This document shows, in pieces, positions 39,001 to 45,000 of a DNA stretch of 63,516 nt (position 1 is its first letter; the number at the start of each line of letters is the position of its first letter). The position numbers are program-made. Source of the DNA: Negaprion brevirostris (taxonomy: Eukaryota); assembly GCA_030324005.1 (NCBI GenBank), contig JARDVH010000185.1:4280981-4344496 (forward strand), read 5' to 3'.

Positions 39001-42000
39001 ACGGCACTGAGTTCATATACTAATTCAAAGCAAAGAAAAATATAACCATGGTTTGGTTGAAATAGCCTTGAGACGTGAATAACGTGGTGGGTAACTATCA
39101 TTGAGATAAGTTGATTTTTTATTGGTTTTGATAATACAGGACTGATTTGTTTTGGTGCACATCAGACATTTGTGAAAATTCAAAATTCATAAAATTTTGT
39201 GCATAAAAACCACAAAACTGATTTATTAAGAGTGAATTCCACCATCCCTGCAGCAGCTTCTTTTGTGGGGTATGAAAGGTACAAGAAAATTCACATCTTT
39301 TCTCCAGAAAACGGTCAGTTTCAAGTTCTACTTTGAGGATGCAGTGCGAGAGATTTTTTTTTTTAAGTTCATCAAGTGTTACCAGTTGAACAAGGCTGTG
39401 AAGATTCTTAGGGAGTTAGAATTTCTCATTAGGCTTAACAGATTTTGGTTGGTTAAGAATTGTCAACCACGGGATTTAAGAACAAAATGAACATTGATGG
39501 AAGTGGTCAGGTTGAGCCACAAACATTACAACAGGTTTAGAAAACAATCCATTGAGTACAAATAGTCTATCAGTTCAATTTTCAACAATCTTAATTAAAC
39601 ACCAACGTGAGGGAACTGGATAAAATATGACAAGGGGGAAAATACCTCACTCAAAAGATGATCCGGGTTTTACAATGATTACAAAACGAACCAATAGGCA
39701 CCACAAACATGGGGGGGGGAAATGTGTTGGTAAATATTAACTATTTTTCGCTTTATTTTACAAATTGCTATTAAGAGAAAGAACAGACCCACCTGTATAT
39801 TGAAATAGTAAAGTCCTGCAGAGCACTGGGGAGGAGGAAGGGGGAGAAAGAAAAACAGCTATTACTTTTCAATGATTTGTTACCTTAAAGCCATTTGAAA
39901 TACTAAAATTGAGAATTAAGAAAAAAAGGAACTTTAAGCACCCATGCACATAAATCAAATATAAAAATCAGGCACAATGACACTTTTCCACCTAATTAAA
40001 ACAAAACGGAGGAAAAAAACACAACAAATAAATTTGAGTGCAGTTATTCATCAACATTTATCAATTAATTAGACAATGTTTCTACTCAAAATAAATTGAA
40101 CTAGTACGAAAAATATCACAATAGTGAAACATGAAGGAATCGGACAAGGGCGACTTCTAGGAATAAAATCGGGGGAGAAAAACTTACAAATTAAAAAATA
40201 ACGACTAAGTAAACCGACGAGCTAATCTCGTGCATTAACAGAGTAGAGCTAAAGGTCTGCTGAACCTGGTAGATCTGCTGCTTTAGACAAAATGGCGGTT
40301 CAGCAAATGTCTGCCTTATCATAAGTCACTTTATGCATCCAATAGTCCAGCCAAAAATATAGCCTCAAAAACACCTCAGAAAAACTCAAGTGACTACTGG
40401 TCAGGCGACTACAATTATTCAGCCGTTTTTAAATCGTTAGTTAAGAATAAAGACCAAAAGAAAAGGCTTTGAAACAAGATTATTTTTGGAAAAAATTCGA
40501 AAATACTAAATCGGGGGGAAAAAAAAGCAAAAAATATTCCCCCAAAAACGAAAAAATATTTATGCAGGTACTGTAGGCAAAATTACTGGTAAAATAACAA
40601 TTGGACAGTACAAATCTAAAGGTTATAATGCAGTATTTAAGGGATTGCCACGCCCTAACAAAATTCTGCAATTTTTAGCTCATTTGCAACATTAAAAACG
40701 ACTGTTTTAAAAAGGCGATACCTATTTATCAGTTCTAAATTTTGCTTTTCCTTGTATTGATCAGAAATCTGTTCCTACTTGATTTTTGCCTTACACCTCA
40801 AGCCGCAATTTGTCTTATTAAAAGAAAACTTTACATTTTAGGCTTATATTGATGTTCTGCTTCTCACCGAATTTACAAATGCATCCAAAACGCATTTTAA
40901 TATTAATTTAATTGAACGAAAATTAATTGTTATTTTCCGAAAATCAAGGGTTTTTTTCCAGAAGTCTCCTCCAATAAAATACTGCAATACAAAGTAATTT
41001 TCTTCCTTTTAGCACTATGTTTTTTCATTAATTTGCTACAATAAACCCCCTATGAATTATTCTGAATATTTTCGGAAAAAAAATCTTGAAACGTCAGCAG
41101 CAATGGAGCTAGTGAGTTGCATCAGGCTGCACAGTAAGGGTGCAAAAACAGTGAGGTTCCGAAAAAGCCTGAAAAATTATCAATTCGTGAAAAATTACAC
41201 TCCTTTTTGCACAGATAATCTACTTTATAGATCAAAAATCATAAACATGGCAAAAAGAAATTATTTTCGAACCCGAAAATAGCCTTTTTCCCCCTTCTTA
41301 AACCCTGATGCGAATGGCCCTGAGCATGCACTGTGACCACTACCAAAAGACTCTGATATAAAAAACAACTCACTCTGCCTGTAACCTCGTCGAGCTCCAA
41401 CATTTCAAAGCCAAAAATCATTGAAAAGCATTTTCCCCACCTCGGAAAAGTCTACCTGGCAAATTCGAACCTTTTTTTGTTCCTGAATCGCCCCCCAGAA
41501 ACCTTCCTACCTAAAATCCTTAGCACAACCTCTGAGCAATTGTAAAGGGTGAAAAAAAAGACTGTTCAGTTCCCCCTGCGCAACTTTCTACACTCAAATT
41601 GCACATTTTCTAGGGCAGGGAAAAATCTGAAAAAATTTCAGTGTAAGCCTCTATGCTTAAGGAAAACATGTGCAAAGTCTCAAGTCTGGGGGATTTGTTG
41701 TTGAAGAATAAAAAATTTGTATTTGCATGTATTAAAATTGCGCCAAAGCTAACGTCTCTGACTGCCTTGTAACCTTGCCAAGTGGCTGCTATCCTGGTTA
41801 GTACAGTAAACTGCCGACCTAGATTTTCTTCCTCTGTAGCTCCTTGGCACAGGGTCAATTTTTAAACATCTGCTTTCTTTTTTCTCACCATATTTAGAAA
41901 ATATGTGCAATCAAATGCTTACTTCAATGTTTTTGTTTTAATTTTTCTGATTTCCCCCCTCTAAAATGGTGTTAAAATAAGCAGTGGCACCATGCTGCTT

Positions 42001-45000
42001 GGTGAATCTGCTGCTGCCAATGCAAAACTACATTTTTTTTAAGCAAGGGGAGACAGAGAAGGCTGAATGCACACCCTACCCCTTTTCACCCAAAGATTGA
42101 AAAACAAAATAACACAACACAAAACTACCAGAAGGTGCTGAACTCAAAGGAATTTATGCAAGGTCAAAGAGAATCATTGCTCTTGATGTACAATCACAAA
42201 ATTGTGTCTCAGGGTGAAATGCAATGGAACTTTTCATTTTTAAAGCTCTCCAACATAAAAACTGTGCATTTTTCTTTCACAAACCCAACTGAACATTTTC
42301 AGAAATACCAGTTAGAACAAATCCAAGCAACTGTATGCTCAACCAAATGCAAACAATCCAAATACTAACAAATTTGTGGGACAGACAGACAGCAATGGTT
42401 GCCACACGCCTACTTCTCATCAAATGAAACTGATACACAGAACATTCTATTAGAAATCTGAATATGCTGCCACTAAAGCAATTGACAATCACATTTCCAA
42501 ATATGAGTCGCAAGCCAGTTTTCTTGAAACACGTTGCATCGTTTGTTGATAGGATGCCATCTTCTCTCAATAATTAAATTTAAAAATAATAAGGTTTCCA
42601 CGGTCAAAACCTCACCTAACTCAGAAGGCTTTCTTCTTAAAAAGCAATTTATATTTTTCAACTCTATTTTCAACTAATTGTTGCACAAAATACACTCACT
42701 GGCCAAATTGAAAGGGGAGAGACAGCAAGTGACTTGTTCTGAAACTTCAGCCAGTATCACTTTGTCACTAGTCATTTGGATTTGCATAAGGCAACTAACC
42801 TCCAATTTTCAATTTCTCCCAGAAAGTGAAGTGTGTGTAACCTCTACATCCTTGAATCCCTTTCCAAAGTGGCACAACCAATAGAAGGGTCTTCTGAGAC
42901 AATGAGGAGGACTACACTGTACACTTAACTGAAATCTCTCCACACCCATTAGTTGTTTTAAAACTTGCTCAGTTAAATTTATTCTGCATCTGCTCAACAA
43001 AGTTCAGCCTTGTCCTTCACTGTCACCTTCTCAAATTTTTCATAACTAACCTTGAAGTTATGAATGACATTGGGTAAATACTCAATGCCATCCAAAATAT
43101 TCCAGGTAACAGCAGACCTTACAATTTTAGGGCAACAAGAATTTACTCTTGCCAGAAGATGCAAAATGAAAAGACTGATAAAATGATGATGAGAGTCAAG
43201 GCTGTTTTATAGCTACGCCACTCACTTGAAGAACCTACTGAGGAATGACTGACTTGTAACTGGTTTTCAAAGTGCAGTCATTGAATTTCTAAACAACTAC
43301 TTGGAGAACTCTCTCTTCAGGAACCACATCGTGAGGGTGTTGCTGACCATGAACCTCCAATGCTAATATTACTCTGGATCACTTTTGTTGATGATGCGTT
43401 CATCCAGTTTGCAAAACTCTTTAAAAAGATTGTTCTTTTGTCTACCTTGATCACTTCAACCATTGATCTTTTCCAATCAGTATCTGTCTTTCTAAATCAC
43501 AGTGTATTACATGCCCAAGGGATTCCAACTGTTCCTTCTTGATTTTGGTCAGCAGAGTTTCTGATTTTACTAGTCAAGGCATCATTATTTGCCTCAAAAA
43601 CCTCAACACTTCGCTACATTATTTCACTGATCGCCCGACACTCGCCTCCATAAGTCAAAATTAGTGTGATGTAGCATGCCAGGATTCTCAGCTTTGTTTT
43701 ATGGCTATTGAATTCATTTCTTGGTCACATTTTCCAATCAGTGTTAACATAATTCCTTGGTAATAAAATTTTTTCTACCTGATTGAACATTTCATTCTTC
43801 ACTGTGACCTCAATTCTGGCATGGTTTACTTTTTTGACACTACTAGACATTACTTTTCTTACAATGAAAATGGTTGAAAAAATAATATAATATTATTAAT
43901 TTATATAATAATATTGTTACAAGAGAAGCATTCCCTACCTTCAGCCACTTCAGGTAACCAGCTGCTCTTCATTTCTCCAAAAGGTACCTTACTTTAAAAT
44001 CCTGATTTTATATAACCAGTACAGGAAAAAATAATGTTTGTCACTAAAGCCAGCACCATTCGAGAGTTGACAGTACTCAACCACAACGAACAAGTTATTC
44101 AGCCAAGAGACACCCCACTTTGTATTTGGATGCCAGTTTCATTATCAATTTTAGTAATGTACTTTCCCTTAAACTAGTGGCATCATATTGGGTAAAGCAC
44201 AGGTGACTGTTCCTTAGAAATGTTTTGGACTGTCCTTGGAAAATTTGCACAAAGGAAAGATAATCTGGTGGAAGGTACCAAATCAAATGTTCTATGTTCA
44301 GTAAGTCAATAAGACTATTCCTTGTACCAACAGATTTTAAAGCAAGTGTCTTAATTGACATTTTTTGTGTGAAAACACTGTGTAATATTCTACTGGGAAA
44401 GTTTGAAGATTTAGCCCATTGTTTCAGAAGAAAAGCTGCATTACAAAGCAAAACTTTCTGCTGAGTTGGCCTAGAAATCACAACACGGCAAAAGCAAACG
44501 GTGGATTTTTTTTTTTAAGGAATGTGAACACTTTGAAGTGAGAATGGAAGGTATCTAGGTTTCTGAAGGAATTTTTTGTAAACCAATAATCTACATATTA
44601 TTTACCAGTCACGTAGCATGTTAAATACAGGATTGGTTTTAAAAATGCAACTAAACGAAGAACCGAGCGACCTGTTGAAGTTGTCGAAGCTAATCTAGGT
44701 GCTATTAGTGGTGGTCTGCCATTGCCAGCATTACTGCGCTACCAACACAGCAAGCAGAATGTCATATCAGTCACATTCTGTAAAGGAGTCATTCTCATCA
44801 ACACAATATGGAAGAAACAAACCACCCATTGTGTCTAAATAACAGCTGATAGGGAGCAAATTTAGCACAACTATCTGATCTTGGGACTCAGGTGAGCAAC
44901 AGGAGAGAGGGGAGGGGTTGCAGTTGATGTGTATAAAGTTGTGAAATAAAATTCCATTCCAACACCAGGTCAAATCATACAGCACATCACTGTTCCTTGG

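What the first reader, a model, noticed from the sequence alone, without database searches (positions are those of the whole stretch)
39600..42200. Multi-kb non-repetitive domain of ~10-bp-phased A/T tracts (PATC-like / curved DNA) in a shark sequence
Seen: 3-8 nt A or T runs recur about once per helical turn with no tandem repeat unit. Examples are tract centres near 40492, 40501, 40509, 40522, 40531; 41164-41287 in ~10-11-bp steps; and 41623, 41634, 41645, 41664, 41675, 41695, 41704, 41714, 41723, 41735, 41746. G/C runs and CpG tend to sit between the tracts. The signal seems to fade gradually (weaker back to ~38.3 kb) rather than stop at a junction. Known: phased An/Tn tracts bend DNA and rotationally position nucleosomes; periodic An/Tn clusters (PATCs) mark germline-expressed introns and protect them from silencing in Caenorhabditis. 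I am not aware of them as a described feature of shark genes. Inference: a structural chromatin element (nucleosome-positioning or anti-silencing/anti-methylation) that evolved in place.
Basis: partly seen in the sequence, partly recalled or inferred. Interest (0 to 1): 0.8.

Follow-up and report, generated by a model that had tools for sequence, protein, structure and literature searches.

The report
AT-run-rich CpG-retaining island, not phased
A 3-kb single-copy stretch crowded with short runs of A or T is really there, but the runs are not locked to the DNA helical repeat as in worm PATCs; its centre has kept its CpGs in an otherwise CpG-depleted vertebrate sequence, so it was probably unmethylated in the germline.

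Summary
The dense A/T runs are real. Runs of 3 nt or more number 6.9 per 100 bp, the highest in the window. The stretch is not a satellite and has no copy elsewhere in the window.

The claimed ~10-bp phasing is not supported. Power at 10-11 bp exceeds dinucleotide shuffles (z 2.5-3.8), but so does power at 13-16.5 bp. It equals nulls that keep the runs: token shuffle and 4th-order Markov. Predicted curvature also matches the composition null. A planted lattice covering 20% or more of the region would have been detected. One ~250-bp patch (41.09-41.34 kb) is borderline.

New findings: a run-rich domain at 39110-42300. Its core, about 40000-41500, has CpG o/e 0.82 against 0.26 for the window (36 CpGs against 11.5 expected, P=5e-9) and no TpG/CpA excess.

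Best reading: an AT-rich island unmethylated in the germline, with nucleosome-disfavouring runs. It is not PATC-like curved DNA. A young insertion is the main rival.

The parts
39110..42300 (.). Run-rich, AT-rich, single-copy non-coding domain. Homopolymer runs of all four bases are over-represented.
   Evidence: Change-point on runs >=4: 124 runs in 3190 bp (3.89 per 100 bp) against 1.66 outside; start 38910-39180, end 42110-42390. Against iid expectation, A>=5 is x2.8, T>=5 x4.1, C>=5 x10, G>=5 x17; the rest of the window is x1.2-2.1. No repeats, no Rfam match, no Pfam match in its ORFs.
40000..41500 (.). Core that has not lost its CpGs (maximum-likelihood limits 40100-41490, loosely bounded).
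   Evidence: 36 CpGs against 11.5 expected at the window's o/e, Poisson P=5e-9. CpG o/e 0.82 against 0.26+-0.08 (max 0.49) outside 38.4-42.3 kb; it ranks first of 542 windows of 1.5 kb. TpG/CpA o/e 1.03 against 1.31+-0.08. GC 0.345. CGAAAA/TTTTCG occurs 9 times against 0.3 expected. Dinucleotide signature distance 0.190 against 0.062+-0.020, max 0.108, over 93 background windows.
39110..39999 (.). Left shoulder: run-rich but CpG-decayed.
   Evidence: CpG o/e 0.12-0.45 and TpG/CpA o/e up to 1.5 in 300-bp windows. For the two shoulders together AA/TT o/e is 1.34 (core 1.37, background 1.12), CG is 0.20 and CA/TG is 1.30.
41501..42300 (.). Right shoulder: run-rich but CpG-decayed.
   Evidence: CpG o/e 0.00-0.30 and TpG/CpA o/e 1.2-1.7 in 300-bp windows; shared run-rich signature.
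41089..41344 (.). Only patch with borderline local ~10.3-bp phasing of AA/TT.
   Evidence: Highest raw 10-11 bp AA/TT power of 901 segments of 256 bp in the window (258; next 176). Against the Markov-4 null it is reached in 10 of 200 sims (region-trained) or 1 of 200 (wide-trained). Rayleigh R is 0.59 for 13 runs at 10.3 bp, which is not above the best runs in random sequence.
39929..39929 (.). Maximum of cumulative (G-C): GC-skew sign change at the left edge of the core.
   Evidence: GC skew is +0.114 over 27-40 kb, -0.144 over 40-44 kb and -0.207 over 47-57 kb; z=14 for 27-40 kb against 40-57 kb. Meaning unexplained.

Best explanation
The feature is a 3.2-kb, single-copy, non-coding, AT-rich domain (39.1-42.3 kb) packed with short homopolymer runs that are not in helical register. 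Its 1.4-1.5-kb centre (about 40.0-41.5 kb) has been spared methylation-driven CpG decay over evolutionary time. I read the centre as a non-methylated island of the GC-poor kind seen in cold-blooded vertebrates, that is, a stretch kept unmethylated in the germline. The proposed mechanism is that dense unphased poly(dA:dT) runs disfavour nucleosomes, which keeps the stretch open for factor binding. It would then act as a regulatory element. It could be the promoter of a non-coding transcript, for example the host transcript of the mir-15/16-family hairpin 35-37 kb away on the minus strand.

Shown: run density, lack of phasing, CpG retention, absence of a deamination footprint, and a texture shared by core and shoulders.

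Inferred: germline hypomethylation, nucleosome depletion, and any regulatory role.
For: CpG o/e is 0.82 against 0.26 window-wide. There are 36 CpGs against 11.5 expected (P=5e-9), ranking first of 542 windows. TpG/CpA o/e is 1.03 against 1.31+-0.08. The size, 1.4-1.5 kb, is island-like.

The shoulders share the core's run-rich signature (AA/TT o/e 1.34 against 1.37; background 1.12). They are CpG-depleted, with CG 0.20 and CA/TG 1.30. The texture is therefore old and resident, and only the middle is protected.

There are no TE hallmarks. No TIR or LTR lies at either pair of boundaries. No ORF or Pfam match was found: 245 window ORFs of >=60 aa, plus 31 ORFs of >=35 aa and 11 mitochondrial-code ORFs in the core. 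No other copy lies in the window.

Literature:
- Cartilaginous-fish genomes are globally methylated apart from regulatory elements (PMC5437953, abstract).
- NMIs mark vertebrate promoters, and in zebrafish they have high CpG o/e at a GC content like their surroundings (PMC3583005, passages).
Against: No methylation, chromatin or transcript data exist here.

The core's GC content (0.345) is below its surroundings (0.41), not equal or above. In mouse ES cells AT-rich CpG-containing DNA is invariably methylated de novo, and no natural AT-rich CpG-rich blocks exist in the mouse genome (PMC4204011, abstract and section 11).

CpG density is modest, at 2.4 per 100 bp.

No exon, TSS or conserved motif was demonstrated. 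The gene context is unresolved.

The GC-skew change at 39.9 kb runs + to -. By the mammalian rule as I recall it, this is the opposite of what a divergent promoter or a replication origin gives.

Copy number in the source genome and orthologous conservation could not be checked, because no eukaryotic genome collection was on hand.
Confidence: 0.4

Rival explanations
1. Young or foreign DNA. The core is a recent insertion that has not yet had time to lose CpGs. It could be a non-autonomous transposon, a horizontally acquired piece, or an assembly chimera with DNA from an unmethylated AT-rich genome.
For: CpG o/e is near 1 with no TpG/CpA excess, as young DNA would show. The dinucleotide signature is an outlier even without CG/TG/CA: 0.148 against 0.063+-0.022, max 0.116. 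Composition (AT-rich, run-rich, CGAAAA 9 against 0.3 expected) is unlike the rest of the window. A 14-nt exact inverted match lies at 39865-39878 / 41415-41428, close to the core's limits.
Against: The run-rich texture extends about 0.9 kb left and 0.8 kb right of the CpG-retaining core, into sequence with full vertebrate CpG decay. A young piece would therefore have had to land in the middle of an old domain of the same texture. There is no target-site duplication beside the 14-nt inverted match (sequence read), and I estimate by hand (no call) that a match of that length is expected by chance in AT-rich DNA. There is no LTR, no poly-A tail and no ORF or Pfam match. No second copy lies in 63 kb. 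There is no match in plasmid or phage collections. No N run lies between 36589 and 45842 to mark an assembly join.
Confidence: 0.22
2. CpGs are kept by purifying selection, not hypomethylation. The core would be a cluster of conserved non-coding elements. Alternatively, the patch is a functionless product of local mutation bias such as slippage-prone low complexity.
For: It is AT-rich, non-coding and single-copy. CpGs sit in a recurrent context: 10 of 36 are in CG[G]AAA or TTT[C]CG. Homopolymers of all four bases are inflated, as replication slippage would produce.
Against: Selection on 36 CpGs spread evenly over 1.5 kb, together with a complete lack of TpG/CpA excess (1.03), is a lot to ask of constraint alone. 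Mutation bias alone does not explain why CpG decay stops in the middle of the domain and resumes in its shoulders.
Confidence: 0.15
3. One reading: a PATC-like array of helically phased An/Tn tracts that bends DNA, rotationally positions nucleosomes and resists silencing.
For: Run density is the highest in the window. The four 256-bp segments with the highest raw AAA/TTT power at 10-11 bp in the window all lie in the domain, and one patch at 41.09-41.34 kb is borderline significant. Against dinucleotide shuffles, 10-11 bp power is raised (z 2.5-3.8). CpG retention would suit an anti-silencing element.
Against: There is no excess over nulls that keep the runs: token shuffle z about 0 and Markov-4 z 0.6-1.8, 63 of 200. 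The excess over dinucleotide shuffles is a broad 10-16.5 bp hump. By ratio to off-band power the domain's segments are not the window's top. Predicted curvature equals the composition null. The three cited series are not better phased than random. In the power test, a +-1 bp lattice in 20% of 200-bp blocks is detected in 85% of trials, and a +-2 bp lattice over the whole region in 100% of trials; the observed value sits at the null mean. PATCs are defined by An/Tn clusters in 10-bp register over extended stretches, and are said to be rare outside nematodes (PMC4947018, passages).
Confidence: 0.04
4. A decayed satellite or minisatellite with a unit near 10-21 bp.
For: TRF finds a 2-copy 21-bp repeat at 40917-40959. 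The CGAAAA motif recurs. In C. elegans, PATCs are reported to derive from Helitron minisatellites (bioRxiv 10.64898/2026.08.08.743475, abstract).
Against: Base-match autocorrelation over lags 1-400 shows no unit. The core's maximum z is 3.0, against a mean maximum of 2.75 in sims. The finding region has only lag 70 at z=4.4. TRF at score >=30 finds nothing longer than 43 bp. The CGAAAA sites (positions read) show no constant spacing.
Confidence: 0.03

Closest known systems
Periodic An/Tn clusters (PATCs, 'hyperperiodic DNA') of Caenorhabditis introns
   Same: Non-coding, AT-rich, with many A or T runs of 3-8 nt separated by G/C-containing spacers. No obvious tandem unit. Extent of about a kilobase or more. 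The CpG retention found here would suit protection from silencing.
   Different: PATCs are defined by runs in ~10-bp register over extended stretches, and they have measurable intrinsic bending (PMC4947018 legend passage; PMC1474062 abstract). Here the register is absent and predicted curvature is no more than composition gives. The host has CpG methylation, which C. elegans lacks (my recall). The original PATC program could not be run.
Non-methylated islands (NMIs) of cold-blooded vertebrates
   Same: A 1.4-1.5 kb stretch with CpG o/e far above its flanks and no deamination footprint. It is not GC-rich, as reported for zebrafish NMIs (PMC3583005, passages).
   Different: GC is below the surroundings (0.345 against 0.41), and the sequence is dominated by homopolymer runs. 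Non-methylation, TSS overlap and conservation are untested. It fails the classical CpG-island GC criterion.
Poly(dA:dT) nucleosome-depleted regions at promoters and origins
   Same: Dense homopolymeric A/T runs without helical phasing: runs of >=5 nt at about 21 per kb against about 4 per kb. The known effect is nucleosome exclusion (PMC8347975, abstract in listing).
   Different: The classical cases are short (tens to about 150 bp) and best studied in yeast. This domain is 3.2 kb, and its individual runs are short (3-8 nt). Occupancy was not measured.
Scaffold/matrix attachment regions and kinetoplast-type bent DNA (recalled, no call)
   Same: AT-rich, A-tract-rich non-coding DNA on a kilobase scale.
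   Different: Bent kinetoplast DNA needs phased tracts, which are not seen here. S/MARs are defined biochemically and do not predict CpG retention.

Membership tests
PATC / hyperperiodic DNA | Dense clusters of 3-5+ adjacent A or T | tested here: met
   6.9 runs of >=3 nt per 100 bp, and 3.9 runs of >=4 nt per 100 bp against 1.66 outside.
PATC / hyperperiodic DNA | Clusters in ~10-bp register along one helical face over an extended region | tested here: not met
   Token shuffle z -0.04 and -0.75. Markov-4 null: 63 of 200 and 57 of 200 sims reach the observed index. Welch z 0.6-1.8. Rayleigh tests: 1 of 10 nominal. A planted lattice would have been detected.
PATC / hyperperiodic DNA | Intrinsic curvature | tested here: not met
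   In silico only, with wedge angles recalled from memory. 8.3 deg/turn against a Markov-4 null of 7.96+-0.41 (40 of 200); idealised phased A6 gives 27.
PATC / hyperperiodic DNA | PATC value above threshold by the Fire et al. 2006 program | not tested
   The paper and program were not available. Surrogate statistics were used instead.
PATC / hyperperiodic DNA | Lies in introns of germline-expressed genes | not testable with these tools
   No gene model could be made. None of the 245 ORFs of >=60 aa has a Pfam match at or above its curated cut-off. No expression data.
Non-methylated island (NMI) | CpG o/e raised over flanks, without TpG/CpA excess | tested here: met
   0.82 against 0.26+-0.08; TpG/CpA 1.03 against 1.31+-0.08; P=5e-9.
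Non-methylated island (NMI) | Experimentally unmethylated DNA (Bio-CAP, WGBS) | not testable with these tools
   No methylome is available. Hypomethylation is inferred from CpG retention only.
Non-methylated island (NMI) | Overlaps a TSS or other regulatory element | not testable with these tools
   No transcript or chromatin data. The only annotated feature in the window is a mir-15/16-family hairpin 35-37 kb away.
Classical CpG island (Gardiner-Garden and Frommer criteria, recalled) | GC >=50% with CpG o/e >=0.6 over >=200 bp | tested here: not met
   The o/e of 0.82 is met, but GC is 0.345.
Decayed satellite | Residual tandem unit | tested here: not met
   TRF and lag-match autocorrelation.
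Transposable element insertion | Terminal repeats, target-site duplication, coding remnants or other copies | tested here: inconclusive
   None was found in the window. Copy number in the source genome could not be searched.

The most novel reading that the evidence does not exclude
The domain is a sequence-encoded methylation-free zone. In this reading the homopolymer-run texture itself keeps a GC-poor stretch unmethylated in the germline of a globally methylated vertebrate, by excluding nucleosomes or by DNA mechanics, rather than CpG density or G+C content doing so. This would be a functional analogue of worm PATCs that works without helical phasing. It would also be an exception to the mouse rule that AT-rich CpG-containing DNA is always methylated.
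Probability: 0.08. Interest if true: 0.65.

Novelty: new member of a known kind. Interest (0 to 1): 0.25.

Why it matters
If the phasing had held, this would have been the first PATC-like domain in a vertebrate. It does not hold, and that claim should be dropped. The case also shows that a dinucleotide-shuffle control would have wrongly confirmed it, because that shuffle destroys runs and so lowers power across the whole 10-16 bp range.

What remains is modest but usable. It is the only CpG-retaining island in 63 kb around a mir-15/16-family gene. It is GC-poor and run-rich, which makes it a concrete candidate for a promoter or enhancer of a non-coding host transcript. It is also a test case for what keeps non-GC-rich islands unmethylated in cartilaginous fish.

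Tried and rejected
(1) A coherent Fourier transform over the whole 2.6 kb gave weak peaks at 9.6-10.0, 13.6 and 16.2 bp. I dropped it because it demands phase coherence over kilobases.

(2) Plain autocorrelation showed only a broad 10-15 bp bump and no clear 20-21 bp harmonic.

(3) The tract-centre histogram has an even/odd rounding artefact. 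I did not use it. Its phase index was redone with unrounded distances.

(4) The sliding phase index suggested a 10.5-10.75 bp optimum across 37-46 kb. The index has a non-zero baseline (the Markov-4 null mean is 0.054-0.057 rather than 0), and 59151-61750 scored higher (0.114), so it is not evidence of phasing.

(5) timed out and was rerun faster.

(6) The first change-point run found a low-CpG block. It was redone with the constraint that the inside rate be higher.

(7) NUMT or coding remnant: Pfam on 31 standard-code and 11 mitochondrial-code ORFs of the core found nothing above cut-off.

(8) Structured RNA: the Rfam E-value scan of 36.6-45.8 kb gave 0 matches, and ARAGORN found 0 tRNAs in the window.

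(9) Vector, plasmid or phage contamination: blastn in distant mode found no match.

(10) The bacterial promoter/terminator scan is irrelevant to a vertebrate and was at shuffle level.

(11) Host-gene identity: a six-frame search for an SMC-type Walker A motif (recalled) found none. Three long ORFs translated look random, so I did not spend large protein searches on them.

(12) The original PATC algorithm: the Fire et al. 2006 paper is not held. One paper search was rejected for syntax.

(13) A real C. elegans PATC sequence as positive control was not obtainable. I used a planted point-process control and a toy phased design instead.

Unchecked: the closed collections metagenome contigs and viral contigs were not used. 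No eukaryotic genome collection was available, so copy number and orthology remain open. Supplementary tables of the PATC papers (PATC content of other genomes) were not seen.

Full report
WHAT WAS CLAIMED. There was no tandem unit, and G/C and CpG sat between the runs.

THE WINDOW. It is 63,516 bp with 14 N runs, which I left alone. The only Rfam match at gathering score is a mir-16/mir-15-family hairpin at 4569-4654 on the minus strand (47.8 bits against the mir-16 model; 50.2 bits against the mir-15 model). CpG is depleted nearly everywhere: o/e is 0.26 and TpG/CpA is 1.30 outside the region. None of 245 stop-to-stop ORFs of >=60 aa has a Pfam match reaching its curated cut-off. ARAGORN finds no tRNA. 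This supports 'vertebrate, non-coding neighbourhood of a mir-15/16 gene'. 'Shark' could not be verified. I do not take the contig for human. No gene model was built, so no spliced or joined search arose.

IS THE OBSERVATION THERE? The runs are.
- The finding region holds 179 runs of >=3 nt (6.9 per 100 bp) and 100 runs of >=4 nt. This is the highest density of any 2.6-kb window.
- Runs of five are about five times more frequent than in the rest of the window.
- It is not a satellite or an interspersed repeat. TRF at score >=30 gives seven trivial rows. The repeat finder gives only 20-30-nt chance-level pairs. Sensitive blastn of 37.0-47.7 kb against the window gives one 33-bp HSP, while other parts of the window share 100-220-bp repeats. 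Base-match autocorrelation shows no tandem unit.

IS IT PHASED? No, beyond what run density gives.
- Neighbouring run centres are a median 12 bp and a mean 14.5 bp apart.
- A short-window (Welch) spectrum of AA/TT or AAA/TTT shows more 9.8-11 bp power than dinucleotide shuffles: z 2.5 and 3.8, with 2 and 0 of 300 shuffles reaching it. That alone would look like confirmation.
- The same excess appears at 11.5-13 bp (z 1.9-2.0) and 13-16.5 bp (z 3.1-3.2). The signal is a broad hump, of the kind any alternation of runs and spacers gives. Dinucleotide shuffling destroys runs and is the wrong null.
- Permuting the actual runs and spacers gives the same 10-11 bp power: z -0.04 and -0.75.
- A 4th-order Markov model trained on the region reproduces the run number (179.3 against 179). 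It also gives the same pair-distance phase index: 0.064 against 0.054+-0.022, 63 of 200; for runs >=4, 57 of 200. Its Welch band power matches too: z 0.56-1.80 over six settings.
- For the wider 37.7-45.8 kb the index is reached by 8 of 200 sims (runs >=3) and 37 of 200 (runs >=4). Welch z there is -0.14 to 1.18.
The best equal-sized runs in random Markov sequence reach 0.56-0.90. One of ten tests was nominal.
- Power was checked by planting a 10.3-bp lattice. With +-1 bp jitter in 20% of 200-bp blocks it is detected in 85% of trials. With +-2 bp jitter over the whole region it is detected in 100% of trials. The observed value sits at the null mean.
- Predicted curvature used a BEND-type sum with wedge angles that I recalled. 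It is the highest per-kb in the window (8.3-8.8 against a mean of 6.5 deg/turn), but it equals the composition null (7.96+-0.41, 40 of 200). It is far from an idealised phased design (27).
- One segment, 41089-41344, has the highest raw 10.3-bp AA/TT power of 901 segments. It beats the null in all but 10 of 200 sims (1 of 200 with the wider-trained null). With twelve such tests this is borderline.
- I could not run the original PATC program or a real worm PATC as control.

WHAT IS ACTUALLY SPECIAL.
- A change-point analysis bounds the run-rich domain at 39110-42300, give or take about 150 bp at each end.
- Homopolymers of all four bases are inflated in the domain, not only A and T.
In 40000-41500 CpG o/e is 0.82 at GC 0.345, with 36 CpGs against 11.5 expected (P=5e-9). 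This is the top of 542 windows of 1.5 kb. TpG/CpA is 1.03 against 1.31+-0.08, so there is no deamination footprint.
- CGAAAA/TTTTCG occurs 9 times against 0.3 expected. Of 36 CpGs, 10 abut a run.
- The two shoulders (39.1-40.0 and 41.5-42.3 kb) have the same run-rich signature (AA/TT o/e 1.34 against 1.37 in the core and 1.12 in the background). They show full CpG decay, with CG 0.20 and CA/TG 1.30.
- Cumulative G-C peaks at 39,929, the left edge of the core. I have no explanation for this.

HOW IT MOST LIKELY WORKS. Cartilaginous-fish genomes are globally methylated apart from regulatory elements (PMC5437953, abstract). A kilobase that keeps its CpGs is therefore either protected from germline methylation or young.

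The shared texture of decayed shoulders and intact core favours one resident entity with a protected middle. NMIs in cold-blooded vertebrates need not be GC-rich (PMC3583005, passages). Unphased poly(dA:dT) runs are known to deplete nucleosomes (PMC8347975, listing abstract).

I therefore read the core as a GC-poor non-methylated island, probably a nucleosome-poor regulatory element. It may be the promoter of the miRNA's host transcript. From memory, a human mir-15a/16-1 host promoter lies at a similar distance from its miRNA; I did not check this.

Against this reading, AT-rich CpG DNA is methylated by default in mouse ES cells (PMC4204011, abstract and section 11). GC here is below the surroundings, and nothing was measured. 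My confidence is 0.4.

RIVALS.
- A young or foreign insertion (0.22) explains CpG retention and the outlier signature. However, no TIR with target-site duplication, LTR, ORF or second copy was found. There is no plasmid or phage match. It would also have had to land inside an old domain of the same texture.
- Selection on CpGs or mere mutation bias: 0.15.
- PATC-like phasing: 0.04.
- Decayed satellite: 0.03.

COMPARISON WITH WHAT IS KNOWN. The domain resembles PATCs in composition only. PATCs are defined by 10-bp register and are reported as uncommon outside nematodes (PMC4947018, passages). They are bent (PMC1474062, abstract). A 2026 preprint derives them from Helitron minisatellites and reports PATC-like mechanics at human CTCF sites and L1 ORF2 (10.64898/2026.08.08.743475; abstract and sections 13, 17, 23). 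None of these features is met here. Searches for 10-bp periodicity or A-tracts together with 'shark' found no paper that describes such a feature in sharks (8 papers listed, none describing one). Supplementary tables of PATC content by species were not seen.

VERDICT. The looser notion of an in-place, methylation-free chromatin element is compatible with the new CpG evidence. Interest is low to moderate.

Noticed in passing
window 4569-4654, minus strand: A mir-15/16-family microRNA hairpin: Rfam mir-16 at 47.8 bits (above gathering) and the mir-15 model at 50.2 bits. Only one hairpin was found in 3.8-6.8 kb, with no partner beside it. A 100-nt N run lies at 4421-4520.
   Followed up: partly
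window 39929 (and 27-57 kb): Cumulative G-C peaks at 39,929. GC skew is +0.114 over 27-40 kb, -0.144 over 40-44 kb and -0.207 over 47-57 kb (z=14). AT skew changes sign only near 47 kb. The switch coincides with the left edge of the CpG-retaining core. The direction is opposite to what I recall for divergent promoters or origins in mammals. Unexplained.
   Followed up: partly
window 3760-3960, 6982-7071, 50257-50474, 52606-52784, 54216-54405 (and 6658-6722, 34272-34344, 34949-35021, 33009-33094): Two families of short interspersed repeats, 65-220 bp at 74-92% identity, presumably SINE-like. No tRNA-like head was found by ARAGORN. None lies in 37-47.7 kb.
   Followed up: no
window 55166-55339: A C-rich minisatellite (units of 36, 52 and 88 bp, 79-98% matches) inside a stretch with GC skew about -0.4 (55-57 kb).
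   Followed up: no
window 38200-38700: A small second patch of raised CpG (7-9 CpGs per 300 bp, o/e 0.5-0.74, TpG/CpA down to 0.90). It lies about 0.5 kb left of the run-rich domain and is not itself run-rich.
   Followed up: no
window 39600-42200: Base-match autocorrelation has an isolated excess at lag 70 (z=4.4; the mean of the per-sim maxima is 2.8), with 77 and 69 bp also raised. No repeat was found to explain it.
   Followed up: no
window 59151-62000: This window has the highest run-phase index of the window (0.114 at 10.25 bp, uncorrected for baseline), and 61-62 kb has a strong A over T skew (0.33). Several 128-256-bp segments near 61.3-61.5 kb are among the peakiest at 10.3-10.8 bp by ratio to off-band power.
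   Followed up: no
window about 40280-40296 and 41722-41729: A match to what I recall as the YY1 core (ATGGCGG preceded by A's) inside the core, and an octamer-like ATTTGCAT just to its right. These are single motif matches recalled from memory and could be chance.
   Followed up: no
window 23000-25000: The most GC-rich stretch of the window (GC 0.50) is still CpG-depleted (o/e 0.32-0.40). By CpG o/e it is not an island, unlike the GC-poor core at 40-41.5 kb.
   Followed up: no
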